The notes below the pieces were generated by a model. It had not been told where the DNA came from. It saw nothing but the letters and a program-made list of their open reading frames with translations, and ran no database searches. A stretch of 12,434 nt of DNA from an uncultured Burkholderiales bacterium (GTDB taxonomy: Bacteria; Pseudomonadota; Gammaproteobacteria; Burkholderiales; Burkholderiaceae_C), in NCBI GenBank assembly GCA_903956845.1, contig CAJBOO010000238.1, positions 1 to 12,434 on the forward strand, read 5' to 3'. The number at the start of each line of letters is the position of its first letter. The stretch's first letter is position 1. A program made the position numbers and the translations under genes. Positions 135-12,434 of the stretch are shown here, piece after piece.

Positions 135-314
135 GACTAACCATAGCGCATTTATTTAAGAAATGCTTTAACCTACATCAACCATCGGCTTTTTTCGCTA
201 ACTGTTGTCTTTGAAAAAATCAAAAAAGAACACCATTTTGAAAATGAATACCGTTGTGAACCCAGTTGGCGTGACCGTCGTGTGCCTGGGTACAAAGAAG
301 TCAGAGGGTGGTGC

Positions 315-1179: not shown

Positions 1180-1977
1180 TCAGGCGGGGCGCACCTGTTG
1201 CATCGCCAGGCACAGGTCTGCCCAGGCTTTGGCTTTGTCGGAGGGGGTGCGCAACAAATACGTGGGGTGGTAGCTCACCACCACCGGGCGACCATGTGCC
1301 TGGTGTACCTGGCCACGCAACTTGCCCAGGGGCTGCGAAGCCCCCTCGCCGAGGGCGGGGGTCAACAAGGACTGCGCAGCAAAGCGACCCAAGGCCAAGA
1401 TCACCTTGGGCTGCAACAACTCGATTTGCCGCTGCAAGAAAGCATGGCAATGCGCGATGTCTTCGGCGCTGGGGTTGCGATTGTCATGCGGGTGGCATTT
1501 CACCGCACTGGTCACCACGGTGTGTTCTGGCCCAGGGTGTTGGGCTTGGCGTGACAAGCCCATGGCTTGCAGCATCGCGTCCAGCAACACACCCTCATCG
1601 CCCACAAAAGCATGGCCTGCTCTGTCTTCGGCGTCCGTGGGTGCGTCGCCCACGATCAACCAATCGGCGGTTTGGCCGGGCGCGGCCGAGCCGCTGGCAA
1701 ACAAGCTGTGCTGGCGACCTTGGCACAGGCCACAAGCCTGGCAAGTCTGGGCCGCATGCGACAGCGCAGCCCAATCCATCTGCGCCAAACCCTCGGGCAG
1801 GGGCGACAAGGCCACGGCAGAGGAGCGAGCGACCACAGCGGCCGCTGTGGGTGATGGCACCGCTGGCTGCACCGGCACCGCTGGCTGCACCGGCACAGGC
1901 GTGTTGGCTGGCGACCACACCCGCACGCCCATCTCAGCCAAGATGGCGCGTTGACGGGTGTCCAAGTTCAAGCTCAT
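1180..1977 (-). CDS. Uracil-DNA glycosylase, family 4 (Fe-S type) with N-terminal Pro/Ala-rich extension
   Basis: 265-aa ORF. It has the Cys cluster [10 protein letters not shown], the motif [30 protein letters not shown] (a variant of family-4 GEAPG..E...G.PFVG.AG.LL), [23 protein letters not shown] and a C-terminal YHPTYLLR. It follows rimI, a common arrangement in betaproteobacteria. Confidence 0.8.
1856..1896. repeat. Perfect 18-bp tandem repeat (about 2.3 copies) inside the UDG linker
   Basis: GGCACCGCTGGCTGCACC occurs at 1856-1873 and again at 1874-1891, followed by a partial GGCAC. It is in frame and encodes the duplicated [12 protein letters not shown] in the minus-strand protein. 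Confidence 0.9.
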
Positions 1978-4183: not shown

Positions 4184-5644
4184 ATGTTTGCTCTGTCGCG
4201 CGTCACCCTGTTGCAAGCCGTTGGCTTGGGGCCCCCCACTCGTCGCCTGTGGGCCACCCGCTTGGCATGGCTTGCGCTGTGTTGGAGCACCCACACGTGG
4301 GCTCAAGCCACCCTGGGCGCCTTGCCCCCGGCGGTCGAAGACGCCTTGCAACGCGCCAAACTGCCGCGCGAGGCTTTGAGTGTCGTGGTCTTGCCCGTGG
4401 GCGCGGCAGGCCCTGCGCGTTTATCGCACCAAGCCGAGGCAGTGCGCAACCCGGCGTCCCTCATGAAGTTGGTCACCACCAGCGCTGCTTTGGACTTGCT
4501 CGGCCCCGCCTTTCAATGGCGCACCCCCGTGTTTGTGGACGGCAAGTTGCGCGACGGTGTGTTGCAAGGCCATGTGTATGTGCAAGGCAGTGGTGACCCC
4601 AAGCTGGGGGTCGAGCAACTGTGGCTGCTGATGCGCAGGTTGCATGGCTTGGGCATTCGCCAGATACAGGGCGACATCGTGCTCGACCGCAGTGCGTTCA
4701 GCTTGCCCCCGCATGACCCCGCTGGCTTTGATGGAGAGCCACTGCGCCCGTACAACGCTGCCCCTGATGCTTTTTTGGTGAACTTCAAATCCCTGTCCCT
4801 GCAGTTCGTACCCGACCCAGCCAACAAGCTCGCGCATGTGCATGTCGAGCCGCCCTTGGCTGGCGTGCAGGTGCAAAGCACCGTGCCTTTGATGGGCGGC
4901 GACTGCAGCGATTACCGCGCGGCCTTGCGTGCCGAATGGGGCAACCCATTGCAAGTGCGGTTCATGGGGGGGTTCCCGGCGAGTTGCAGCGAGAAGCTGT
5001 GGCCGGTGGCGTATGCCGACCCTGAACGCTTTGCCGCGCGTGCCGTGCAGGGCATGTGGCAACACGTGGGCGGCCAACTCAATGGCAGTGTGCGCGATGG
5101 TGTGGTGCCTGCGGGTTTGAAGCCCGTGTTCCTGGTGGAGTCACCCACTTTGGGCGAGGTGGTGCGCGACATCAACAAGTTCAGCAACAACGTCATGGCC
5201 GAGCAGGTGTTCTTGAGCTTGGCTTTGCAAAAGCGCGGTCAAGCCACGCCCTCTGTGGCCAAAGAGGTACTCGAGGTTTGGTGGCGTGAACGTCTGGGCA
5301 CCGAACCTCCCTTGCTCGACAAAGGCTCAGGTTTGAGCAGAGACCAGCGCATCAGCGCGCAAGCCTTGGCCCACTTGTTGCAATGGGACTGGCGACAAGC
5401 CTTCATGCCTGAGTTGATCGCTTCCTTGCCCTTGACGGGGGTGGACGGCACCTTGAAGCGCAGCAAGAGCAGTGCGAATGCGCACCTGAAGACGGGCAGC
5501 TTGAAGGACGCGATGGGCATCGCCGGTTATGTGGATGGGCAAAACGGGCAACGTTTTGTGTTGGTGGCGATGGTCAACCACGCCAACGCCAACCAAGCCA
5601 GACCGGTGATGGATGCTTTGATCGACTGGACCGCTGGGCGCTGA
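4184..5644 (+). CDS. dacB: D-alanyl-D-alanine carboxypeptidase/endopeptidase, PBP4 (peptidase S13)
   Basis: It has the active-site SxxK (NPASLMKLVTTSAAL), the SNN motif (INKFSNNVMAEQVF) and KTG (HLKTGSL), with an N-terminal signal-like segment ...LAWLALCWSTHTWAQA. The start is ambiguous: ATG 4130 in the track, ATG 4184 preferred (MFALSRV...), and later non-ATG starts are possible. Confidence 0.85.
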   Translation: MFALSRVTLLQAVGLGPPTRRLWATRLAWLALCWSTHTWAQATLGALPPAVEDALQRAKLPREALSVVVLPVGAAGPARLSHQAEAVRNPASLMKLVTTSAALDLLGPAFQWRTPVFVDGKLRDGVLQGHVYVQGSGDPKLGVEQLWLLMRRLHGLGIRQIQGDIVLDRSAFSLPPHDPAGFDGEPLRPYNAAPDAFLVNFKSLSLQFVPDPANKLAHVHVEPPLAGVQVQSTVPLMGGDCSDYRAALRAEWGNPLQVRFMGGFPASCSEKLWPVAYADPERFAARAVQGMWQHVGGQLNGSVRDGVVPAGLKPVFLVESPTLGEVVRDINKFSNNVMAEQVFLSLALQKRGQATPSVAKEVLEVWWRERLGTEPPLLDKGSGLSRDQRISAQALAHLLQWDWRQAFMPELIASLPLTGVDGTLKRSKSSANAHLKTGSLKDAMGIAGYVDGQNGQRFVLVAMVNHANANQARPVMDALIDWTAGR

Positions 5645-5691
5645 CCGACGGTCATCCCCACTTCTTTTGCGTGCACTATTTTGCATAAACT

Positions 5692-5715
5692 GGTTGTGCA
5701 TTGTGTTGCACAACC
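5692..5715. promoter_or_regulatory. Perfect 9-bp inverted repeat (GGTTGTGCA-N6-TGCACAACC) in the dacB/xmoC intergenic region; operator or non-canonical terminator hairpin
   Basis: Read directly: 5692-5700 GGTTGTGCA, loop TTGTGT, 5707-5715 TGCACAACC. No T-run follows on either strand, so it is not a classical intrinsic terminator. It is surrounded by further TTGCA/GTGCA words (GTGCAC 5671-5676, TTGCAT 5681-5686). Confidence 0.4.
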
Positions 5716-5780
5716 CACAAGATGGGCATTCAGACAAGAAATCAGATGAAAAACCCTTCATGAACTAGGTATTAACACCA

Positions 5781-5809
5781 TTGTTCAGGGGGTCTTTCTT
5801 TTCAAGAAT
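5781..5809 (+). promoter_or_regulatory. Candidate sigma70-type promoter for the monooxygenase operon (TTGTTC-N17-AAGAAT)
   Basis: -35-like TTGTTC at 5781-5786, a 17-nt spacer, and -10-like AAGAAT at 5804-5809, about 55 nt upstream of the xmoC ATG. This is pattern matching only, and other AT-rich hexamers in 5660-5830 are equally possible. Confidence 0.2.
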
Positions 5810-5851
5810 GCGAATGTCCGTTGCCTGGCAATGGTTTTTCATACCGCACCT

Positions 5852-5857
5852 AAGGAG
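5852..5857 (+). promoter_or_regulatory. Shine-Dalgarno sequence (AAGGAG) of xmoC
   Basis: AAGGAG lies 7 nt upstream of the ATG at 5865. It is the strongest SD in the window and fits a first gene of an operon. Confidence 0.75.
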
Positions 5858-5864
5858 TCATTAG

Positions 5865-6644
5865 ATGTCCACCTTGAGCAGCCGAGATCTCCATCTCAAC
5901 CCGACCACCGACACCACGTCGCGTTTCACCCTGAGTTATGTTTGGTTCGCCGTCGCCATGACCGTGTTGACAGGCGTGTATGTGTCTTACCGCGTCTACC
6001 AACAGATGTACGGCATGTCTGCCGGCCTGGACTCCACCGAGCCGATCTTCCAAGACATTTGGATGCGTTTGTTTTGGATCCAACTGCCCGTTTTGTTCGG
6101 CATCGTCGCCTTGATCCAGGTTTATCTGTTTGTCACACGTGACCGCAACATCGACGCGATCACCCCTGAGGTCGAACTCAAACGCTATTTCGCGCTCACC
6201 ATGTGGTTGGTGGTGTACACCTTCACCTTCTATTGGATTGGCAGCTTTTTCGGCGAAGGCGATGGCAATTGGCACCAAACCGTGCTGCGCGACACGCCCA
6301 TCACGCCCAGCCATGTGGTGCTGTTTTACGCCTGCATCCCGCTGTACCTGATGTTTGGCATTGGCAGCTTCGTCTATGCCATGACGCGCATCCCCGCGTT
6401 CTGCAAAGGCATCTCTTTGATGCACGTGTTCGCGGTGGTGGGTCCATTCCTTATCCTGCCTAACTTGGGCTACAACGAATGGGGCCATGCCTACTGGTTG
6501 ACCGAAGAAATCTTCTCTCATCCATTGCATTGGGGCTTTGTGGTGTTGGGCTGGAACGCCTTGTCGCTGGCTGGCGTCTTGATGCAAATCATCTCGCGTT
6601 TTCGTGATTTGATGCCCATCGTTTTCAAGAACGAAACCGCCTGA
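5865..6644 (+). CDS. xmoC: Copper membrane monooxygenase subunit C (PmoC/AmoC family; methane/ammonia/hydrocarbon monooxygenase)
   Basis: 259-aa polytopic membrane ORF with family signatures FYWIGSFFGEGDGNWHQTVLRDTPITPSHVVLFY and NEWGHAYWLTEEIFSHPLHWGFVVLGW. Asp133/His137/His150 have the spacing D-x3-H-x12-H, identical to M. capsulatus Bath PmoC Asp156/His160/His173. Asn204/His208/His222 have the spacing N-x3-H-x13-H, as in Asn227/His231/His245. Confidence 0.92.
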   Translation: MSTLSSRDLHLNPTTDTTSRFTLSYVWFAVAMTVLTGVYVSYRVYQQMYGMSAGLDSTEPIFQDIWMRLFWIQLPVLFGIVALIQVYLFVTRDRNIDAITPEVELKRYFALTMWLVVYTFTFYWIGSFFGEGDGNWHQTVLRDTPITPSHVVLFYACIPLYLMFGIGSFVYAMTRIPAFCKGISLMHVFAVVGPFLILPNLGYNEWGHAYWLTEEIFSHPLHWGFVVLGWNALSLAGVLMQIISRFRDLMPIVFKNETA

Positions 6645-6670
6645 ACGGCCTCCTCACCTAGGAATTCACC

Positions 6671-7522
6671 ATGAACACAGAAACACTGCAACACCCCCGG
6701 GGTGCTGCGGCAGGACAAACGCACGCCCACGATACCGTGGAAAGCGTATCAGGTCTGTCGCCCAAGGCCCTGCATTTCTCCCGCGTCTTCGAACTCTTTG
6801 TGGTCGCGGCCATCATCATGCTGTTTGCTGGCGCCATCCATTTGCATGTGCTGCTGTTGGCGGGCGACTGGGACATGTTCTTGGATTGGAAAGACCGCCA
6901 GTACTGGCCGCTGCTCACGCCCGTGGTGATGATCATGTTCCCAGCCGCTTTGCAGGGCATTTTCTGGACCTACTTCAGGCTGCCCATCGGTGCCACTGTC
7001 GGCGCGACTTGTTTGATGTTGGCCGTGTCGATATCACGACCCGCATCGTTCATGTGGTGGACCGACTACCCACTCAACCTGGTGTTGCCCGCGCAAATGA
7101 TTGCCAGTGCCATCGTCTTGGATGTGTTCCTGCTGGTGTTTCGCAATGCCTTGTTCACCGCGATCTTCGGTGGCTTTGCGTTCGCATTTTTGTTCTACCC
7201 TTCCAATTACGCCATCTTCGCGCCGTTTTACGTGCCAGTCAGCCACCAAGGCATGATGGCTTCCATGGCCGACATGATTGGCTACGTCTATCCGCGATCA
7301 GCGACGCCCGAGTACATCCGCATCATTGAACGCGGCACGCTGCGCACCTTTGGTGACTCGGCCAGTTGGGTGTCGGCCTTGTTTGGTGGCTTCATCTGCA
7401 TCTTCATGCACTACGCCTGGTGGTATTTGGGCATTGCCATGTCCTCCATGAAATTCCTGCCCAACAACGCCAAAGTCATGGCCTTGATGGGAACCAAACC
7501 AGATGCCAAAGCCGGTGCTTGA
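6671..7522 (+). CDS. xmoA: Copper membrane monooxygenase subunit A (PmoA/AmoA family)
   Basis: 283-aa membrane ORF with signatures GDWDMFLDWKDRQYWP, FRLPIGAT, FYPSNY and TPEYIRIIERGTLRTFG, which are near-universal PmoA/AmoA motifs. By eye against my recollection of M. capsulatus PmoA, the N-terminus is about 19 aa longer, with a His/Ala-rich GQTHAHD, and the C-terminal tail is also longer. A weak SD (AGGAA) precedes the ATG. Confidence 0.92.
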   Translation: MNTETLQHPRGAAAGQTHAHDTVESVSGLSPKALHFSRVFELFVVAAIIMLFAGAIHLHVLLLAGDWDMFLDWKDRQYWPLLTPVVMIMFPAALQGIFWTYFRLPIGATVGATCLMLAVSISRPASFMWWTDYPLNLVLPAQMIASAIVLDVFLLVFRNALFTAIFGGFAFAFLFYPSNYAIFAPFYVPVSHQGMMASMADMIGYVYPRSATPEYIRIIERGTLRTFGDSASWVSALFGGFICIFMHYAWWYLGIAMSSMKFLPNNAKVMALMGTKPDAKAGA

Positions 7523-7568
7523 GCACCCAACCTTCAAGGGGAAAATTGTGCTGTTGATTCAAAAAACA

Positions 7569-8807
7569 ATGAAGCAGTTCGCGCTTTGGCTGGGTTTGGC
7601 ATTGGTGGCGGGTGTCGCCACCGAATCCGCCTGGGCCCATGGCGAGCGTTCACAAGAACCATACCTGCGCACCCGCACCGTGCAGTATTACGACGTGCAC
7701 TACGACAAACAAACCGTCAAGGTCAACGAAGAGTTCACCTCGATTGGCAAGTTTCGTTTGATGGAAGACTGGCCCGATGCCGTGAGCCTGCCAGAAACAG
7801 TGTTTTTGGCCGCTTATGCACCCGGCCCCATGATCACGCGCGTGGAAAGCTACCTCAATGGCGTGCCTGCGCGCCAATCGTTTTCCAAGCTGGAATTGGG
7901 CCGTGATTACGAATTCAAATTGGTCATGAAGGGGCGTGTGCCTGGGCGACACCACATCCATCCCTTGTTGTCCGTCGAGGGCTCAGGCCCCTTGGTCGGT
8001 CCGGGTCAATGGATTGAAGTCACTGGCAACAAAGCCGATTACGTGATGCCGGTCACCACCATGAACGGTTTGAAAATCGACAACATCGAGTTTTATGGCA
8101 CGGCACGTGCGCTGAAATGGTATGGCGTTTGGATTGCGTTGGCTGCCTTTTGGTTGCTGTTCTGGTTGGTCCGCCCCTTGCTGTTGCCGCGCTGGATTGC
8201 TTTGAACAAAGGCCGTGAAGACGTGCTGATCACCAGCCGCGACATCACCGTGGGTGTGGTCTTGGGGGTGGTGGTGGTGGCCATCAGTTTCGGTGGATAC
8301 ATCTACGCCAACAAAGAGTACCCCTATGTGGTGCCTTTGCAGGCTGGTACCAACAAAGTCGACCCCTTGCCCTTGCCCAAGAGCGATGTGAAAGTCGTGG
8401 TCACCAAAGCCACCTATGACGTGCCTGGGCGCGCCATGTATGTCACAGCCCGCATGACCAACAACGGCCCTGAAGCGGTCTCCATTTTGGAGTTCGCCAC
8501 CGCCAACCTGCGTTTTGTCAACTTGCAAGCGCCCGGCGCTGACAAGGTCATCTCGCCAGACTATCCGCGCGACTTGGTGGCACGCGCTGGCATGGGGTTG
8601 ACCGACCAGAAACCCTTGATGCCGGGCGAAACCCGTGAAATCAAATTCGAAGCCAGTGACGCCATGTGGGAAGTCGAGCGCTTGGTCAGCTTCTTGACCG
8701 ACGTGGACTCCAAATTCGGTGGTTTGCTGTTCTTCGTCGACAAGTCGGGCAACCGCATGATGACCGAAATTGGCGGCCCCATCCTGCCCACCTTCACGGC
8801 GCTTTGA
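7569..8807 (+). CDS. xmoB: Copper membrane monooxygenase subunit B (PmoB/AmoB family), periplasmic cupredoxin subunit with signal peptide
   Basis: The signal peptide MKQFALWLGLALVAGVATESAWA is followed by mature HGERSQEPYLRTRTVQYYD (compare the PmoB HGEKSQ N-terminus). The HxH ligand pair is in PGRHHIHPLLSVEGSGPLVGPGQWIEV. There are two TM helices (WYGVWIALAAFWLLFWLV; ITVGVVLGVVVVAISFGGYIY) and a C-terminal cupredoxin domain (ATYDVPGRAMYVTARMTNNG...EFATANLRFVN). Alternative starts are GTG 7548 (preceded by AAGGGG) or the track ATG 7503. Confidence 0.9.
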   Translation: MKQFALWLGLALVAGVATESAWAHGERSQEPYLRTRTVQYYDVHYDKQTVKVNEEFTSIGKFRLMEDWPDAVSLPETVFLAAYAPGPMITRVESYLNGVPARQSFSKLELGRDYEFKLVMKGRVPGRHHIHPLLSVEGSGPLVGPGQWIEVTGNKADYVMPVTTMNGLKIDNIEFYGTARALKWYGVWIALAAFWLLFWLVRPLLLPRWIALNKGREDVLITSRDITVGVVLGVVVVAISFGGYIYANKEYPYVVPLQAGTNKVDPLPLPKSDVKVVVTKATYDVPGRAMYVTARMTNNGPEAVSILEFATANLRFVNLQAPGADKVISPDYPRDLVARAGMGLTDQKPLMPGETREIKFEASDAMWEVERLVSFLTDVDSKFGGLLFFVDKSGNRMMTEIGGPILPTFTAL

Positions 8808-8808
8808 C

Positions 8809-9384
8809 ATGTCAATCAAACACCTGTTGTTGACTGGGTGCCTGTGGCTGAGCGCCACAGGTGCTTGGGCGCACGGTGGCTTGTCCATGGACCAAGACAT
8901 GTGCAAGCTCACCGTCGGCCCTCACATGATGCATTTCGCGGGCTACCAAGAAGACGCGCAACGCACCGAGTTTTGTGAAGACATTCCGCACAACGGGCCG
9001 ACCGTCATCGTGCTCGATGTGGTGGACTTGGCGCTGCGTGATTTGCCCATCGAATTTCGCATCGTTCGCAAAACCGACGGCCCCTTGGAGGCAGCGCCTG
9101 AGGTCTTCAAACTCGCGCCTGCGGTTTATCCCAAGGGCACGGTGTTGATTCGCCACGATTTCATAGACGATGGCGACTATGTCGGCATGGTCTATGCGGG
9201 CGCTGACCGCAAGTATGCGTCGGTGTTTCCTTTCTCGGTGGGCAATCCCCGCGTGCCATATTGGAAATACACCTTGGGCTTGGTGGCTTTGCTGTTGCTC
9301 GCGGTGGCGGGCCTTCAGGTCGGCCGCCAACGGTTGCAAAGAGACGTGGCCATGCAAAGCCCCAACGACACGCAAGGGACTTGA
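8809..9384 (+). CDS. pmoD: PmoD/AmoD/AmoE-like periplasmic copper protein with C-terminal membrane anchor
   Basis: The ATG at 8809 lies 1 nt after the xmoB stop; the track ORF started earlier, at 8770. The signal peptide MSIKHLLLTGCLWLSATGAWA is followed by HGG. A C-x7-M-x-H motif (CKLTVGPHMMH, nt 8902-8934) matches, as I recall it, the CuA-forming motif described for PmoD. There is a beta-rich periplasmic domain of about 150 aa, then a single C-terminal TM (YTLGLVALLLLAVAGLQVG) followed by RQRLQR. Its position directly after subunit B matches amoCAB-amoE/D and pmoCAB-pmoD loci. Confidence 0.6.
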   Translation: MSIKHLLLTGCLWLSATGAWAHGGLSMDQDMCKLTVGPHMMHFAGYQEDAQRTEFCEDIPHNGPTVIVLDVVDLALRDLPIEFRIVRKTDGPLEAAPEVFKLAPAVYPKGTVLIRHDFIDDGDYVGMVYAGADRKYASVFPFSVGNPRVPYWKYTLGLVALLLLAVAGLQVGRQRLQRDVAMQSPNDTQGT

Positions 9385-9386
9385 AC

Positions 9387-9749
9387 ATGTGCGCGGGGTG
9401 GCGCTGGTGGGGTTTGTGCATGGTGGGCTTGCCTGTGTGGGCAGGGGCCCACGCACACTTGCTGGGCACTGAGCCCCCCAGCAACGCCCTCATCAGTCAA
9501 TCACCCCAGCAACTGCGCTTGCGGTTTTCTGAACCGATTGAGCAACAGTTCGTGCGCATCCAGGTCATGGCGGATGCCAAACCGCTGCCGCTGAATCCAG
9601 CCAACATGCAGTGGGAAGCTTCCGCCAAAACCCTGGTGGTCAACCTGCCCGCCCACCAAGCCAGCAGTTACCAAGTGCAGTGGTCCATCTTGGCCAAAGA
9701 TGGACACGCTGGGAAAGGGCAATACACCTTCAAAGTCAAGTCACCTTAG
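9387..9749 (+). CDS. copC: Periplasmic copper-binding protein CopC (Cu(II)-site-only type)
   Basis: The ATG at 9387 lies 2 nt after the pmoD-like stop, with AAGGGA as SD. The signal peptide ...GLPVWAGA is followed by a mature HAHLLGTEP N-terminus (His1 of the CopC Cu(II) site). The C-terminal W.ILAKDGHAGKGQYTFKV carries the conserved D-x-H. A Met-rich Cu(I) loop is absent. Confidence 0.85.
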   Translation: MCAGWRWWGLCMVGLPVWAGAHAHLLGTEPPSNALISQSPQQLRLRFSEPIEQQFVRIQVMADAKPLPLNPANMQWEASAKTLVVNLPAHQASSYQVQWSILAKDGHAGKGQYTFKVKSP

Positions 9750-9751
9750 CC

Positions 9752-11638
9752 GTGGATCCCATCCCTGTCCTGCGCGGTGTTCAAACTGCCCTGATGGCAT
9801 GGGCGTTTGGGCTGTTGTTCACCTCATGGCTTGGTTCACCCACACCGCGTCAAATGACGGCGCGCCGACTGGCATGGTGGCTGACTTGGGCGGCATGGCT
9901 GGTTGCACTGGCCCGGCTGGCCGACATGGCTTGGCATCTCTCGTCATTGAGCGAGGCTGAGCCCAGCGTTGGACTGGTGGCGCAGACTTATGTCGGTCAG
10001 GTGTTATTGACCCAGGTGGTTTGTCTGTCCCTGGTGCTGGTCTCGATATGGCAGGCGCGTGCGGTCAAACTCGGTCTGTGTGGGATGGTGTTGGCCATGC
10101 TGTGCACCGCCTTGGCCGGTCACGTCACGGCGGCTGCCGAGGGTTGGCGGCAAATCGTGGTGTCGCTCACACATGTGTTGCTCGCGCAGTTGTGGCTTGC
10201 AGGCGTGTGGGGTCTGTGGTGGCAAAGCCGGCGCAGCGACGAGGCGGTCGAGTCTTGGCGTCAATCCTTGGCGCGCTTTTCCAAGCTGGCCTTGCCAGGC
10301 ATGCTGCTGCTCTTGCTGTCAGGGCTGGGCTTGGCGTATTGGACTGTGGGCAGTTGGCCGGCTTTGCTGGCCACGGCGTATGGGCAACAGTTGCTCATCA
10401 AATCAGGGTTGGTGGTGGGTGTCTTGGTGTGTGCGTGGCAATTGCGCCAATGGTTGGTTAGGCCAAGCGACACAGGCAACCTGGGTCGTGCATGGCTGAG
10501 CAGTGAGAGCAGTGTGGCCTTGGCGGTGTTGTTGATGGCCAGTGTGATGGCGGCCACCGTGCCGGCGGCGCACGACACCATCGCGTGGCCATTCGCATTT
10601 CGTTGGGCCCCAGTGTTGGCTTGGCGGCAAGACCCGATAGGCACAGGCCAAAGCTTGGCGTGGGCAGCGGGCTGGTGTGTGCTGGGGGGCGTTTGCTGGG
10701 CCATCTGGCGTCGCGGCCATCGGCAGCGTGCACGCGGGGCTTTGGTCGCAGGCATCGTGGGTGGGTTGGTCGTGGCTTTACCGGCCACCAGCATTTCCGC
10801 TTACCCAACCACTTACATGCATTCGTCGGCGCGTTTGGATGCGGCATCTGTCTCGGCCGGCGAACAGCTCTATGGTCAGCACTGCTTGGCCTGCCATGGC
10901 GTGCACGGGCATGGCGATGGCCCGGTGGCGGCACTGAACCGACTCAAACCCGCCAACCTGACCGAGCCCCATGTCAGTTGGCACACCCATGGTGACATGT
11001 TTTGGTGGCTCAGCCACGGCAAAGGACCCATGCCAGGCTTTGCCGATGTCTTGTCAATCGACGAACGTTGGCACCTGATCAATTGGTTGATCGCGATGTC
11101 TTTGGGATACGAAGCCCGCACGCTCACCAGCACACCTTCGCCCTTCAACCCCTGGTTGCCCAGCATCGATTTCCGTTTTCAAATGGACAACAACCAATTC
11201 ATGTCCTTGTCTGAGTGGCGCGGCTTGCATGCGGTGCATTTGGTCATCGTCAACCATGAAAGCCAATTGCAGCGCGTGCGTGACTTGTTGCAAGACATGA
11301 AGGGTTTTCCGGCGCAACTGGTGATCGTCAGCCGGCCCGCATGGTTGAAGGACTTGGTCAAAGGCCCGTGCGAGGCTATTTTGGTGAGCGACCCGCAAGG
11401 CGAGATCGCACAAGCGTGGGCGAACTACCGCCGAAGCTTTGCTGCACCCGATTTGCTGAATGAAGAAACCCAGGTGCCACGCATGGAGTTTTTGATCGAT
11501 CGGTACGGCTTTGTGCGCGCACGCTGGCGCTCAGACGAGTCGCCCTCGGCCTTGTCTGTGAGCGAACTCAAAGCGGTTTACGACAGCTTGTCTGTGGAAG
11601 GTGAAATCAAATCCGCAGCGATACATCAACATGACTGA
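9752..11638 (+). CDS. copD: CopD-family membrane protein fused to a periplasmic class-I cytochrome c domain and a C-terminal Cys-less thioredoxin/redoxin-fold domain
   Basis: The likely start is GTG 9752, 2 nt after the copC stop, giving (M)DPIPVLRG...; the alternative is ATG 9794. About 10 predicted TM helices carry CopD-like LAGHV...SLTHVLLAQLWLAGVWGL. A positively charged loop RRGHRQRAR lies between the last two helices. Next comes heme motif CLACH (nt 10883-10897) with downstream GPMPGF as the likely Met ligand. The C-terminal segment of about 160 aa (FMSLSEWRGLHAVHLVIVNHES...ILVSDPQGEIAQAW...MEFLIDRYGFVRARW) has an AhpC/TSA/TlpA-like pattern but no Cys at the catalytic position. Confidence 0.75.
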   Translation: MDPIPVLRGVQTALMAWAFGLLFTSWLGSPTPRQMTARRLAWWLTWAAWLVALARLADMAWHLSSLSEAEPSVGLVAQTYVGQVLLTQVVCLSLVLVSIWQARAVKLGLCGMVLAMLCTALAGHVTAAAEGWRQIVVSLTHVLLAQLWLAGVWGLWWQSRRSDEAVESWRQSLARFSKLALPGMLLLLLSGLGLAYWTVGSWPALLATAYGQQLLIKSGLVVGVLVCAWQLRQWLVRPSDTGNLGRAWLSSESSVALAVLLMASVMAATVPAAHDTIAWPFAFRWAPVLAWRQDPIGTGQSLAWAAGWCVLGGVCWAIWRRGHRQRARGALVAGIVGGLVVALPATSISAYPTTYMHSSARLDAASVSAGEQLYGQHCLACHGVHGHGDGPVAALNRLKPANLTEPHVSWHTHGDMFWWLSHGKGPMPGFADVLSIDERWHLINWLIAMSLGYEARTLTSTPSPFNPWLPSIDFRFQMDNNQFMSLSEWRGLHAVHLVIVNHESQLQRVRDLLQDMKGFPAQLVIVSRPAWLKDLVKGPCEAILVSDPQGEIAQAWANYRRSFAAPDLLNEETQVPRMEFLIDRYGFVRARWRSDESPSALSVSELKAVYDSLSVEGEIKSAAIHQHD

Positions 11639-12434
11639 ACGCGCTTCCAACCTGTGGATGCAGCGAGGGCAATGGCTGATCGCCGCCTTGGCCGTGAGCG
11701 GTTTTTTGTACCTGGTGGCGCAAAGTTGGCTCAAACCACCGTTGCCCGCAGCGGCAGCCTCGCTGACCCCCTTGCCTGAAGGCTGTGCCCCTGGCTTGAC
11801 GGGTCAGCCCGGGCGACACATGGATGTGCAGACCCCCCATGGCTTGCGCTACTCGGTGGTGGCCCCCAGCAACTACCAGCCCACGCAACGCCACGGTTTG
11901 TTGATGATGTACCCACCCGCAGGTTTTTCCAACGACCTGGCAGAGCGCTATTACCGTTTGAGCGAAGAAGCCAATCGCCATGGGTATGTCGTGGTGTTCA
12001 GTGACGCCATCCCCTTGTCCGCACGAGCGTTGCGCCTGCAAAGCGAGGTCGTGCCCGATGTCGTGGCGCACTGGTGCATCGATCCCGAGCGGGTGGTGTT
12101 TGCGGGGCATTCGGATGGTGGGAGTGTGACCACGGGCTTGACGGTGCGTGCATCGGTCTCGCCGCCACCCACCCGCATCGTGTCGAGTGCCGCGGGCATC
12201 ACAGCGCAAGACTTGCAGCAAGAGCGATGCCCAGCACCTTTGCATGTCACGGTGTTGCACAACCCCAAGGACCAGTTGTTTCCGGGCTATGGCGAGGGTG
12301 TGGTCACGTGGTGGGGGCAGTGCATGCAATGCACCGAGCAAGTGCAAACCGAGCCCTCAGGATGTGTGGTGCGCCAGTGCGCGCAAGGCAAGGTGTTGCG
12401 GCACTGTGTGACTTCCGAGCCGCATGTGGTCTGG
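11631..12434 (+). CDS. Membrane-anchored alpha/beta-hydrolase (esterase / PHB-depolymerase-like family), partial, continues beyond window end
   Basis: Absent from the track because it has no stop in the window. My manual translation from ATG 11631, which overlaps the copD-fusion stop by 8 nt, is open for all 268 codons. It reads MTERASNLWMQRGQWLIAALAVSGFLYLVAQSW (TM anchor)...RHGLLMMYPPAGFS...HGYVVVFSD...IDPERVVFAGHSDGGSVT (G-x-S-x-G nucleophile elbow)...VTVLHNPKDQLFP...SEPHVVW. The 246-aa minus-strand ORF 11607..12347 is its antisense shadow. Confidence 0.5.
   Translation, partial: MTERASNLWMQRGQWLIAALAVSGFLYLVAQSWLKPPLPAAAASLTPLPEGCAPGLTGQPGRHMDVQTPHGLRYSVVAPSNYQPTQRHGLLMMYPPAGFSNDLAERYYRLSEEANRHGYVVVFSDAIPLSARALRLQSEVVPDVVAHWCIDPERVVFAGHSDGGSVTTGLTVRASVSPPPTRIVSSAAGITAQDLQQERCPAPLHVTVLHNPKDQLFPGYGEGVVTWWGQCMQCTEQVQTEPSGCVVRQCAQGKVLRHCVTSEPHVVW

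What the first reader, a model, noticed from the sequence alone, without database searches (positions are those of the whole stretch)
5865..8807. Complete, apparently functional copper membrane monooxygenase (xmoCAB) in a housekeeping context that looks like neither a nitrifier nor a classical methanotroph
Seen in the sequence:
- Three consecutive ORFs carry unmistakable PmoC/AmoC, PmoA/AmoA and PmoB/AmoB signatures in C-A-B order.
- Every metal ligand I can align by eye is retained. Subunit B has an N-terminal His directly after the predicted signal cleavage (AWA|HGERSQ) plus HxH (H129/H131 of the precursor).
- Subunit C has D133/H137/H150 and N204/H208/H222, with exactly the spacings of M. 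capsulatus Bath Asp156/His160/His173 and Asn227/His231/His245.
- By eye, the positions matching the dispensable Bath PmoB bis-His site (His48/His72) are Gln and Arg.

Established knowledge: the CuMMO family includes pMMO, AMO and short-chain alkane/alkene monooxygenases, and substrate cannot be inferred from these motifs.

Inference:
- The sequences are divergent from textbook Pmo/Amo (for example FYWIGSFFGEGDGNWHQTVL versus FYWGASYFTEQDGTWHQTIV).
- The flanks (pyrF, udg, rimI, tsaB, dacB at about 67-72% GC) look like a heterotrophic Burkholderiales genome.
- This is therefore a candidate orphan CuMMO of unknown substrate.

Caveat: CuMMO operons in non-methanotroph, non-nitrifier Proteobacteria have been noted in genome surveys. 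The novelty would be functional rather than the mere presence of the genes.
Basis: partly seen in the sequence, partly recalled or inferred. Interest (0 to 1): 0.85.

Follow-up and report, generated by a model that had tools for sequence, protein, structure and literature searches.

The report
Copper monooxygenase cassette in freshwater Comamonadaceae
This is an intact, selectively maintained copper membrane monooxygenase gene cassette from an abundant freshwater Comamonadaceae (Limnohabitans-like) bacterium; the gene family has been reported in such bacteria before, but what it oxidises (ammonia, methane or short alkanes have each been claimed from sequence alone) is still untested.

Summary
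The unit is larger than reported. It has seven genes: xmoC-A-B, a PmoD homologue (xmoD), copC, a copD-cytochrome c fusion, and a conserved membrane-anchored esterase-like gene (orfX).

It is not an assembly chimera. Four independent metagenome contigs match the whole window at 99.4-99.8%. The genes are under strong purifying selection (dN/dS 0.03-0.09).

XmoA+XmoB are only 42-45% identical to solved AMO, pMMO and a Pxm sequence, and 32-33% identical to actinobacterial hydrocarbon monooxygenases. They fall in a separate clade with 100% bootstrap support, together with Comamonadaceae, Methylibium, Acetobacteraceae and Bradyrhizobium sequences.

In sister subclades the same cassette is followed by acyl-CoA synthetase, aldehyde dehydrogenase, thiolase and enoyl-CoA hydratase genes. 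Some also have a MimR-type activator upstream. This favours short-chain alkane or ketone oxidation over methane or ammonia.

The presence of these genes is already published: Limnohabitans 2012, Rochman 2020, GROWdb 2024. I rate it a new member of a known kind. The substrate question is open and testable. Interest is moderate.

The parts
5671..5686 (.). Conserved upstream inverted repeat, GTGCA-N6-TGCAT (ATGCA-N6-TGCAT in relatives). Candidate operator.
   Evidence: TGCA...TGCAT is invariant in 6/6 aligned xmoC upstream regions, although at least three different genes lie upstream in those genomes. A regulatory role is inferred, not shown.
5746..5783 (.). Second conserved non-coding block (ATGAA-N6-TTCAT followed by TAGGTATTAACACCATTG). 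Candidate promoter/operator of the cassette.
   Evidence: 23 invariant columns across six genomes. The sigma-70 consensus scan found no canonical promoter in 5500-12434.
5865..6644 (+). xmoC, CuMMO subunit C (259 aa). Carries the CuC (D133/H137/H150) and CuD (N204/H208/H222) ligand sets.
   Evidence: Pfam AmoC E 7e-88. Alignment to solved PmoC. Residues checked. AAGGAG ribosome-binding site at 5852-5857. dN/dS 0.03-0.06.
6671..7522 (+). xmoA, CuMMO subunit A (283 aa). Keeps the Glu equivalent to Bath PmoA Glu195.
   Evidence: Pfam AMO E 6e-80. Scores fall below both NCBIfam equivalog cut-offs. PDB alignments. dN/dS 0.025-0.045.
7503..8807 (+). xmoB, CuMMO subunit B (434 aa from ATG 7503, or 412 aa from ATG 7569). 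Signal peptide ends ...AWA|HGERSQ. CuB ligands are the N-terminal His plus HxH.
   Evidence: Pfam Monooxygenase_B E 1e-136. Best PDB match is AmoB 9leg_B, E 4e-111. Alignment to Bath PmoB. dN/dS 0.08-0.09.
8809..9384 (+). xmoD, a PmoD/AmoD-family protein (191 aa). Signal peptide, periplasmic domain with C-x7-M-x-H, C-terminal membrane helix.
   Evidence: No Pfam or NCBIfam hit, but it matches PDB 6cpd_A PmoD at E 1.7e-17 with the Cys/Met/His motif aligned. Conserved after xmoB in all 14 genome loci.
9420..9749 (+). copC, periplasmic copper-binding protein.
   Evidence: Pfam CopC E 9e-19. Gene call of 109 aa in identical contigs.
9854..11638 (+). copD fused to a c-type cytochrome domain (CLACH) and a C-terminal domain of unclear fold.
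   Evidence: Pfam CopD, Cytochrome_CBB3 and Cytochrom_C. The same architecture is seen in every relative examined. The C-terminal part gives only non-significant peroxiredoxin-like hits.
11631..12434 (+). orfX (268 of 280 codons; cut by the window end). Membrane-anchored alpha/beta-hydrolase, esterase-like, overlapping the copD stop codon by 8 nt.
   Evidence: Full length in L015. Only 72 homologue clusters found. Invariant GHSDGG, D214, H265 and 7 Cys. AF2 pLDDT 93.4. Best Foldseek matches are feruloyl esterase, PHB depolymerase and acetyl-xylan esterase. It lies next to a CuMMO cluster in every context looked at, including a homologue only 40% identical.

Best explanation
The window carries a functional seven-gene copper membrane monooxygenase cassette, chromosomally fixed in a freshwater Comamonadaceae (Limnohabitans-like) heterotroph.

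Proposed mechanism:
- XmoC, XmoA and XmoB assemble in the cytoplasmic membrane like pMMO/AMO, by homology a trimer of CAB protomers.
- They use the conserved copper sites (CuB in XmoB; CuC and CuD in XmoC) to insert one oxygen atom from O2 into a small hydrophobic substrate.
- XmoD (PmoD-like), CopC and the CopD-cytochrome c fusion supply and handle copper in the periplasm.
- orfX is a periplasm-facing serine esterase-like protein of unknown role that always travels with the cassette.

The enzyme belongs to a clade separate from characterised ammonia and methane monooxygenases. Its most likely physiological substrates are short-chain (C2-C4) alkanes or closely related small volatile organics such as acetone. 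These would be oxidised to alcohols and fed into ordinary alcohol, aldehyde and fatty-acid metabolism encoded elsewhere in the genome.

Shown here: gene identity, ligand conservation, cassette composition, clade placement, purifying selection.
Inferred: quaternary structure, copper-delivery roles, substrate.
For: Family and ligands.

Integrity and selection:
- dN/dS is 0.03-0.09 at dS 0.5-1.4.
- The identical XmoA occurs on at least 17 contigs.
- The window is 99.4-99.8% identical to four independent contigs.

Distinct clade:
- XmoA is 41-43% identical to solved AmoA and PmoA, which are 48-51% identical to each other.
- All 126 relatives exclude the AMO/pMMO references in 100/100 bootstraps.
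- In the A+B tree rooted on NBB4 Hmo and Rhodococcus ZPP, the clade has 100% support.

Alkane or ketone leaning:
- In sister subclades L009, L019, L021 and L022 the same cassette is directly followed by an AMP-binding acyl-CoA synthetase and a thiolase. Aldehyde dehydrogenase, SDR and enoyl-CoA hydratase follow in some of them, and an AraC regulator in L019 and L021.
- A MimR_N/HTH_8 activator lies upstream in L019 and L008.
- The functionally studied actinobacterial alkane CuMMO loci (NBB4, Rhodococcus ZPP) are also followed by an AMP-binding gene that is 32-33% identical.
- A hydantoinase/acetone-carboxylase-like gene lies near the L032 cluster.
- Rochman et al. 2020 described xmoCABD in alkane-utilising Rhodoferax/Polaromonas (title cited; details are from my own knowledge).

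No hao/cycAB, methanol dehydrogenase or formaldehyde-pathway gene occurs within +/-10 kb.
Against: - In the window's own subclade (window, L001-L007, L015-L018, L033) the cassette stands alone among housekeeping genes, with no adjacent catabolic genes or regulator. The alkane inference is therefore borrowed from relatives that are 74-76% identical.
- Substrate cannot be read from CuMMO sequence.
- The rest of the genome could not be searched, so hao, xoxF/mxaF or alcohol dehydrogenases elsewhere are not excluded.
- Authors close to Rochman 2020 still list these enzymes as of 'unknown function'.
- GROWdb placed the Limnohabitans genes with methanotrophs on tree position.
- My trees are neighbour-joining. 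They lack Emo, gamma-AOB, alpha-MOB and Rochman's own sequences.
Confidence: 0.55

Rival explanations
1. It is a divergent particulate methane monooxygenase. The freshwater Comamonadaceae host oxidises methane in oxic surface water, either cometabolically or for supplementary energy.
For: The GROWdb authors denote Limnohabitans MAGs with this gene as methanotrophs from tree placement, and write 'possibly methane ... divergent particulate methane monooxygenase'. L004, a GROWdb MAG, is 92.5% identical in XmoA+B and shares the upstream gene order. All pMMO copper ligands are retained.
Against: XmoA is 42-43% identical to PmoA, no closer than to AmoA. The clade excludes gamma-proteobacterial pMMO with 100% bootstrap support. 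No methanol dehydrogenase or C1-assimilation genes lie within +/-10 kb. The TIGR03080 and TIGR03078 scores fall below their cut-offs. The downstream genes in sister clades suit substrates of C2 or longer. From my own knowledge of Rochman 2020, stable-isotope probing showed no methane assimilation by carriers of related genes.
Confidence: 0.12
2. It is an ammonia monooxygenase. It would give the heterotroph or photoheterotroph a form of (heterotrophic) ammonia oxidation.
For: The Limnohabitans Rim28/Rim47 genome announcement is titled as indicating 'ammonia oxidizers' (citations). NCBIfam AmoC_BACT (342 vs cut-off 319) and AmoB_BACT (514 vs 336) score above their cut-offs, so PGAP names relatives 'bacterial ammonia monooxygenase'. 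The best PDB matches for XmoB and XmoA are AMO structures. From my own knowledge, the order CAB, D-type gene, copCD resembles that of beta-proteobacterial nitrifiers.
Against: The sequences lie outside the beta-AOB-type AMO clade (100% bootstrap; 43-44% identity, against 84-94% among the AMO sequences). AmoA_BACT scores below its cut-off (284.5 < 290). No hao/cycAB lies nearby, though these genes are not adjacent to amo in nitrifiers either. The family is widespread in taxa not known to nitrify, such as Bradyrhizobium, Acetobacteraceae and Methylibium.
Confidence: 0.1
3. It oxidises a different small molecule that is neither alkane, methane nor ammonia. Candidates are a ketone such as acetone, an alkene such as ethylene, or an ester-forming or ester-derived volatile. 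The conserved esterase orfX would be part of that pathway.
For: orfX is a confidently modelled serine-hydrolase fold, found essentially only next to CuMMO clusters. MimR-type regulators sit next to relatives; from my own knowledge these respond to acetone in mycobacteria. A hydantoinase/acetone-carboxylase-like gene lies in L032. There is precedent: a verrucomicrobial pMMO homologue oxidises acetone (PMC8630023).
Against: No Baeyer-Villiger monooxygenase, epoxide-handling or CoM genes were seen in any neighbourhood examined. orfX's substrate is unknown and it may serve enzyme or membrane maturation instead. This reading overlaps with the main explanation, because propane, 2-propanol and acetone belong to one pathway.
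Confidence: 0.2
4. It is a decaying or silent relic, or an assembly artefact.
For: There are no adjacent catabolic genes or regulator in this subclade. No canonical sigma-70 promoter was found.
Against: All seven reading frames are intact. dN/dS is 0.03-0.09. GC3 equals that of the flanks. Conserved non-coding blocks lie upstream. Four independent assemblies are 99.4-99.8% identical over the full window.
Confidence: 0.02

Closest known systems
xmoCABD clusters of non-nitrifying Betaproteobacteria (Rhodoferax, Polaromonas; Rochman et al. 2020, ISME J 14:714)
   Same: C-A-B-D gene order with a PmoD homologue. The host is a Comamonadaceae-type heterotroph. Both are divergent from Amo and Pmo. Relatives have an alkane-type downstream context.
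   Different: I could not obtain their sequences, so it is untested which of their lineages (if any) this subclade matches. Here the habitat is river and lake plankton, not oil-sands tailings. The cassette here also includes copC, a copD-cytochrome c fusion and an esterase-like orfX.
Putative amoA/pmoA genes of Limnohabitans (Zeng et al. 2012 genome announcement; GROWdb, Borton et al. 2024)
   Same: Probably the same gene family in the same kind of organism. A GROWdb MAG (L004) shares gene order and 92.5% XmoA+B identity. An orfX homologue is labelled Limnohabitans sp..
   Different: Those reports assigned ammonia or methane from annotation or tree position alone. My comparison places the family outside both characterised clades, and the gene neighbourhoods of relatives point to substrates of C2 or longer.
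Ammonia monooxygenase of beta-proteobacterial nitrifier type (PDB 9leg, 9cl6, 9pxf)
   Same: Best sequence matches among solved structures. All copper ligands are shared. The accessory D-type and copCD genes are similar.
   Different: Only 43-44% identical in A+B, against 84-94% within AMO. It lies outside the clade. No nitrifier context is present.
Particulate methane monooxygenase (M. capsulatus Bath, M. alcaliphilum 20Z, Methylocystis)
   Same: Same fold family. The CuB, CuC and CuD ligands and PmoA Glu195 are conserved. A PmoD homologue is present.
   Different: 42-43% identical. The bis-His site residues (Bath His48/His72) are Gln/Arg. It lies outside the clade. No C1 pathway genes are nearby.
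Actinobacterial hydrocarbon monooxygenases (HmoCAB of M. chubuense NBB4; CuMMO of Rhodococcus sp. ZPP)
   Same: C-A-B order. An AMP-binding acyl-CoA synthetase gene lies downstream, as in the sister subclades of this family.
   Different: Only 32-33% identical. They serve as the outgroup in the tree. They are plasmid-borne and lack xmoD and copCD in the regions fetched.
CuMMO of unknown function in Bradyrhizobium sp. ERR11 (Khadka et al. 2018)
   Same: Same clade (100% bootstrap), with xmoCABD-copCD order.
   Different: 58-62% identical. It lacks orfX, is followed by PCuAC and an integrase gene, and sits in a different genomic setting.

Membership tests
Copper membrane monooxygenase (CuMMO) superfamily | Three adjacent genes for subunits C, A and B matching PF04896, PF02461 and PF04744 | tested here: met
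   E-values 7e-88, 6e-80, 1e-136.
Copper membrane monooxygenase (CuMMO) superfamily | CuB ligands in subunit B: N-terminal His of the mature protein plus HxH | tested here: met
   H24 and H129/H131 (M23 numbering) align with Bath His33 and His137/139.
Copper membrane monooxygenase (CuMMO) superfamily | CuC (Asp/His/His) and CuD (Asn/His/His) ligands in subunit C | tested here: met
   D133/H137/H150 and N204/H208/H222, aligned to solved PmoC.
Copper membrane monooxygenase (CuMMO) superfamily | Copper-dependent, acetylene-sensitive monooxygenase activity in membranes | not testable with these tools
   Needs whole-cell or membrane assays.
Bacterial ammonia monooxygenase (AmoCAB of beta-proteobacterial nitrifier type) | Sequences nest within the characterised AmoCAB clade | tested here: not met
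   41-44% identity, against 84-94% among the AMO structures. Excluded in 100/100 and 200/200 bootstraps.
Bacterial ammonia monooxygenase (AmoCAB of beta-proteobacterial nitrifier type) | NCBIfam equivalog cut-offs for AmoC_BACT, AmoA_BACT and AmoB_BACT | tested here: inconclusive
   C 342 > 319 and B 514 > 336 pass. A 284.5 < 290 fails.
Bacterial ammonia monooxygenase (AmoCAB of beta-proteobacterial nitrifier type) | Genome encodes hydroxylamine oxidoreductase and cytochromes c554/cM552 (hao, cycAB) | not testable with these tools
   None within +/-10 kb.
Particulate methane monooxygenase (PmoCAB) | Sequences nest within a characterised PmoCAB clade | tested here: not met
   42-43% identical to Bath and 20Z; outside that clade. 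Alpha-proteobacterial PmoA is a weaker PDB match. Verrucomicrobial and NC10 references were not tested.
Particulate methane monooxygenase (PmoCAB) | Methanol dehydrogenase and formaldehyde/formate oxidation or assimilation genes in the genome | not testable with these tools
   None within +/-10 kb.
Actinobacterial hydrocarbon/butane monooxygenase (HmoCAB/BmoCAB) | Sequences cluster with NBB4 HmoCAB or the Rhodococcus ZPP CuMMO | tested here: not met
   32-33% identity; they form the outgroup.
Betaproteobacterial xmoCABD (Rochman et al. 2020) | xmoC-A-B followed by a pmoD-type gene in a non-nitrifying Comamonadaceae-type host | tested here: met
   xmoD matches PmoD 6cpd_A at E 1.7e-17. The nearest genomes are Comamonadaceae MAGs with shared gene order.
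Betaproteobacterial xmoCABD (Rochman et al. 2020) | Sequence clusters with one of the three Rhodoferax/Polaromonas lineages | not tested
Betaproteobacterial xmoCABD (Rochman et al. 2020) | Transcription induced by, and growth on, C2-C4 alkanes | not testable with these tools
   Experimental.
PmoD/AmoD copper protein family (for ORF 8809-9384) | Signal peptide, periplasmic domain with conserved C-x7-M-x-H, C-terminal membrane helix | tested here: met
   Alignment to 6cpd_A pairs C/M/H. The signal peptide and the hydrophobic C-terminal stretch are read directly from the sequence.

The most novel reading that the evidence does not exclude
The seven-gene module (xmoCABD-copCD plus a dedicated periplasmic esterase) defines a functionally new type of CuMMO in some of the most abundant and transcriptionally active freshwater bacterioplankton. 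Its native substrate would be a climate- or ecosystem-relevant trace compound in oxic surface water, for example methane, ethylene or ethane, acetone, or another algal or photochemical volatile. It would be used as a supplementary energy source by photoheterotrophs. That would add an unrecognised sink to freshwater trace-gas budgets.
Probability: 0.15. Interest if true: 0.8.

Novelty: new member of a known kind. Interest (0 to 1): 0.4.

Why it matters
Carriers of this cassette are Limnohabitans-like Comamonadaceae, a group that is among the core, active bacteria of rivers and lakes. Sequence-based papers have labelled their CuMMO in three conflicting ways: ammonia oxidiser (2012), alkane oxidiser (2020, for relatives) and methanotroph (2024).

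Automatic annotation (NCBIfam/PGAP) calls relatives 'bacterial ammonia monooxygenase'. That label can inflate nitrifier or methanotroph counts in metagenome surveys.

Showing that the family is a separate clade argues against the ammonia and methane labels. So do its own conserved seven-gene composition and the fatty-acid-type downstream genes in relatives. Together they give a concrete hypothesis that can be tested on cultured strains.

Tried and rejected
1. Assembly chimera: rejected. The window is 99.4-99.8% identical end to end to four independent contigs, and the same gene order was seen in the places listed from at least 17 contigs.
2. Recent horizontal acquisition, suggested by the lower G+C of xmoCAB (0.54-0.57 against 0.61-0.65): not supported. 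GC3 is the same in the cassette (0.71-0.76) and the flanks (0.69-0.79), so the dip reflects membrane-protein composition. The cassette does sit in different housekeeping contexts in different MAGs, so older mobility is likely.
3. A sigma-54 promoter read by eye at 5826-5841 (TGGCA-N-TTTCA): rejected. The GG/GC core is imperfect and not conserved in the alignment.
4. Terminator-like hairpin at 5818-5834: ignored. Terminator counts are at chance level, 9 found against 9.5 expected.
5. Reading Rochman 2020, Zeng 2012 and Kasalicky 2018: none is held. I relied on citing papers and on memory, and have marked this where it applies.
6. Getting organism names for the closest protein hits: cluster look-up returned only generic names.
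7. Looking for catabolic genes next to the Bradyrhizobium cluster: none found, only PCuAC and an integrase.
8. Assigning the CopD C-terminal domain: only non-significant peroxiredoxin-like hits.

Full report
**What is there**

The + strand of the window carries consecutive ORFs at 5865-6644, 6671-7522 and 7503-8807.
- They match Pfam AmoC (E 7e-88), AMO (6e-80) and Monooxygenase_B (1e-136).
- They also match the NCBIfam Amo/Pmo models.
- Against solved structures, XmoB and XmoA match ammonia monooxygenases best (9leg, 9cl6, 9pxf; E 1e-105 to 1e-111 for XmoB and about 1e-66 for XmoA).
- XmoC matches Methylocystis PmoC best (E 2e-71).

**Ligands**

- XmoC has D133/H137/H150 and N204/H208/H222. 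These align with the Asp/His/His and Asn/His/His of solved PmoC.
- XmoB has the N-terminal His after AWA and the HxH. These align with Bath His33 and His137/139.
- The Bath bis-His positions His48 and His72 are Gln and Arg.
- XmoA keeps the Glu equivalent to Bath Glu195.
Gene callers choose 7503. The mature protein is the same either way.
The flanks are 0.60-0.66.

**The unit is seven genes, not three**

- ORF 8809-9384 has no Pfam hit, but it matches PmoD (PDB 6cpd_A, E 1.7e-17) with the C-x7-M-x-H motif aligned. It has a signal peptide and a C-terminal membrane helix.
- Next come copC (9420-9749) and a copD-cytochrome c fusion (9854-11638).
- Overlapping the copD stop, an eighth-of-a-kilobase-short ORF (11631 onward) runs off the window end. 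It is 280 aa in identical contigs.

This 'orfX' has the following properties:
- It has only 72 homologue clusters in a database of 5.8 billion sequences.
- It has an invariant GHSDGG elbow, D214, H265 and seven Cys.
- It models at pLDDT 93.4 as an alpha/beta hydrolase with an N-terminal membrane helix.
- Its closest solved folds are feruloyl esterase, PHB depolymerase and acetyl-xylan esterase.
- It follows copD in almost all members of the clade examined. Even a homologue only 40% identical lies beside an xmoCABD-copCD cluster.

**Is it real and functional?**

- The identical XmoA is encoded on at least 17 contigs from several samples, and every place listed has the same neighbours: uvrA, pyrF, udg, rimI, tsaB, EamA, dacB | cassette | sua5, purK, purE.
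- Four of those contigs are 99.4-99.8% identical to the whole window.
- MAGs L001 and L004 share the upstream gene order at 58-87% protein identity.
- Against Comamonadaceae relatives, dN/dS is 0.03-0.09 with dS 0.5-1.4.
- GC3 of the cassette equals that of the flanks, so there is no compositional sign of recent import.
- In other MAGs of the same subclade the cassette lies between quite different housekeeping genes.
- About 190 bp of upstream non-coding sequence, including two short inverted repeats, is conserved and travels with the cassette.

**Where it sits in the family**

- XmoA is 41-43% identical to solved AmoA (beta-nitrifier type) and to gamma-proteobacterial PmoA. Those two are 48-51% identical to each other.
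- In a 131-sequence neighbour-joining tree, all 126 relatives form a group that excludes those references in 100/100 bootstraps.
- I also built an XmoA+XmoB tree (599 columns, 200 bootstraps). It was rooted on NBB4 HmoAB and the Rhodococcus ZPP CuMMO, which were retrieved from plasmid records.
- That tree gives a 100%-supported clade. It contains a 624-kb metagenome contig, Bradyrhizobium, Acetobacteraceae, Methylibium, Burkholderiaceae and the freshwater Comamonadaceae subclade.
- The subclade, with the window in it, is itself 100% supported and 91-94% identical internally.
- The clade is sister to AMO + Pxm + pMMO, though this deeper node has only 54% support.
- Identity to Hmo and ZPP is 32-33%.
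- Limits: the method is neighbour-joining only. There are no Emo, gamma-AOB, alpha-MOB, verrucomicrobial or Rochman reference sequences.

**Clues to substrate**

- Around the window's own subclade there are no catabolic genes.
- In the sister subclades (L009, L019, L021 Methylibium, L022) the cassette is directly followed by an AMP-binding acyl-CoA synthetase and a thiolase. Aldehyde dehydrogenase, SDR and enoyl-CoA hydratase follow in some of them, and an AraC regulator in L019 and L021.
- L019 and L008 have a MimR_N/HTH_8 activator upstream.
- The actinobacterial alkane CuMMO loci are likewise followed by an AMP-binding gene.
- One distant cluster lies near a hydantoinase/acetone-carboxylase-like gene.
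- This pattern fits oxidation of substrates of C2 or longer (alkane to alcohol to aldehyde to acid to acyl-CoA), or of ketones. It does not fit methane or ammonia.
- It is an inference by association, not a demonstration.

**Literature**

- CuMMO genes of unknown function are recorded for Polaromonas, Rhodoferax, Solimonas and Bradyrhizobium ERR11.
- Rochman et al. [quoted passage not shown] The paper was not readable here, and details in this report are from my own knowledge.
- The GROWdb river catalogue reports a 'divergent particulate methane monooxygenase' in core active lineages. Its preprint legend states that Limnohabitans genomes carry a putative amoA/pmoA of unconfirmed substrate, which the authors denote as methanotrophs.
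- The 2012 Limnohabitans Rim28/Rim47 genome note is titled as indicating ammonia oxidisers.
- So the presence of these genes is known, and the function is contested and untested.

**Verdict**

This is a new member of a known kind. What this analysis adds:
- the seven-gene definition of the cassette, including a dedicated esterase-like protein;
- the demonstration that the family lies outside the solved AMO and pMMO clades;
- gene-neighbourhood evidence that favours short-chain alkane or ketone oxidation.

Noticed in passing
window 1856-1896 (inside udg, - strand gene 1180-1977): A perfect 18-bp tandem repeat (2.3 copies) encodes the PAVPVQ repeats near the N-terminus of the family-4 uracil-DNA glycosylase. 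The udg product length differs among otherwise near-identical contigs (259, 265 and 267 aa), which suggests copy-number variation in the population.
   Followed up: partly
window 11078-11635 (C-terminal ~185 aa of the copD fusion): After the CopD and cytochrome c domains there is a further conserved domain with no Pfam match. It gives only non-significant peroxiredoxin/Bcp-like hits (FLIDRYGFVRARW motif). It may be a thioredoxin-fold module and is present in all relatives.
   Followed up: partly
window 7503-7568: The 22 codons upstream of the internal Met of xmoB (MPKPVLEHPTFKGKIVLLIQKT) overlap the end of xmoA. They are conserved at protein level in L001, L003 and L004 (full-length tblastn matches), so the long form may be the real precursor, with an unusually long signal-peptide n-region.
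   Followed up: no
L019 16237-20650; L021 12691-16786; L022 5625-11334; L009 14809-17718: In sister subclades the CuMMO cassette is followed by an acyl-CoA synthetase and a thiolase. Aldehyde dehydrogenase, SDR and enoyl-CoA hydratase follow in some of them, and an AraC-type regulator in L019 and L021.
   Followed up: yes
L032 (GCA_041603255.1 contig JBFIER010000011.1) 1-16867: This is a more distant xmoCABD-copCD cluster with the esterase gene transcribed divergently. It has a MerR regulator, DUF1329, two MMPL transporters, a MalT-type regulator and a hydantoinase/acetone-carboxylase-like gene.
   Followed up: no
L010 14503-16200 (Bradyrhizobium shewense ERR11): The Bradyrhizobium cluster lacks orfX. 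It is followed by a PCu(A)C copper chaperone and an integrase-core (IS) gene, with a Peptidase_C58 virulence-type gene upstream. This suggests it sits on a mobile or symbiosis island.
   Followed up: partly
window 5865-8807 (annotation issue): The NCBIfam equivalog models AmoC_BACT and AmoB_BACT score above their cut-offs for this non-nitrifier clade, while AmoA_BACT does not. Relatives are therefore auto-named 'bacterial ammonia monooxygenase', a likely source of false nitrifier calls in metagenomes.
   Followed up: partly
window 223-260: An 18-bp imperfect tandem repeat (2.1 copies, 80% match) lies in the AT-richer region downstream of pyrF. The first 500 bases have G+C of 0.52.
   Followed up: no
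L024 3173-5984 (Methylomagnum ishizawai plasmid pRS11DPr1): A pxm-type (A-B-C order) CuMMO operon is carried on a 274-kb plasmid of a methanotroph. It sits next to a LysR regulator and an MFS transporter. I used it here only as a reference sequence.
   Followed up: no
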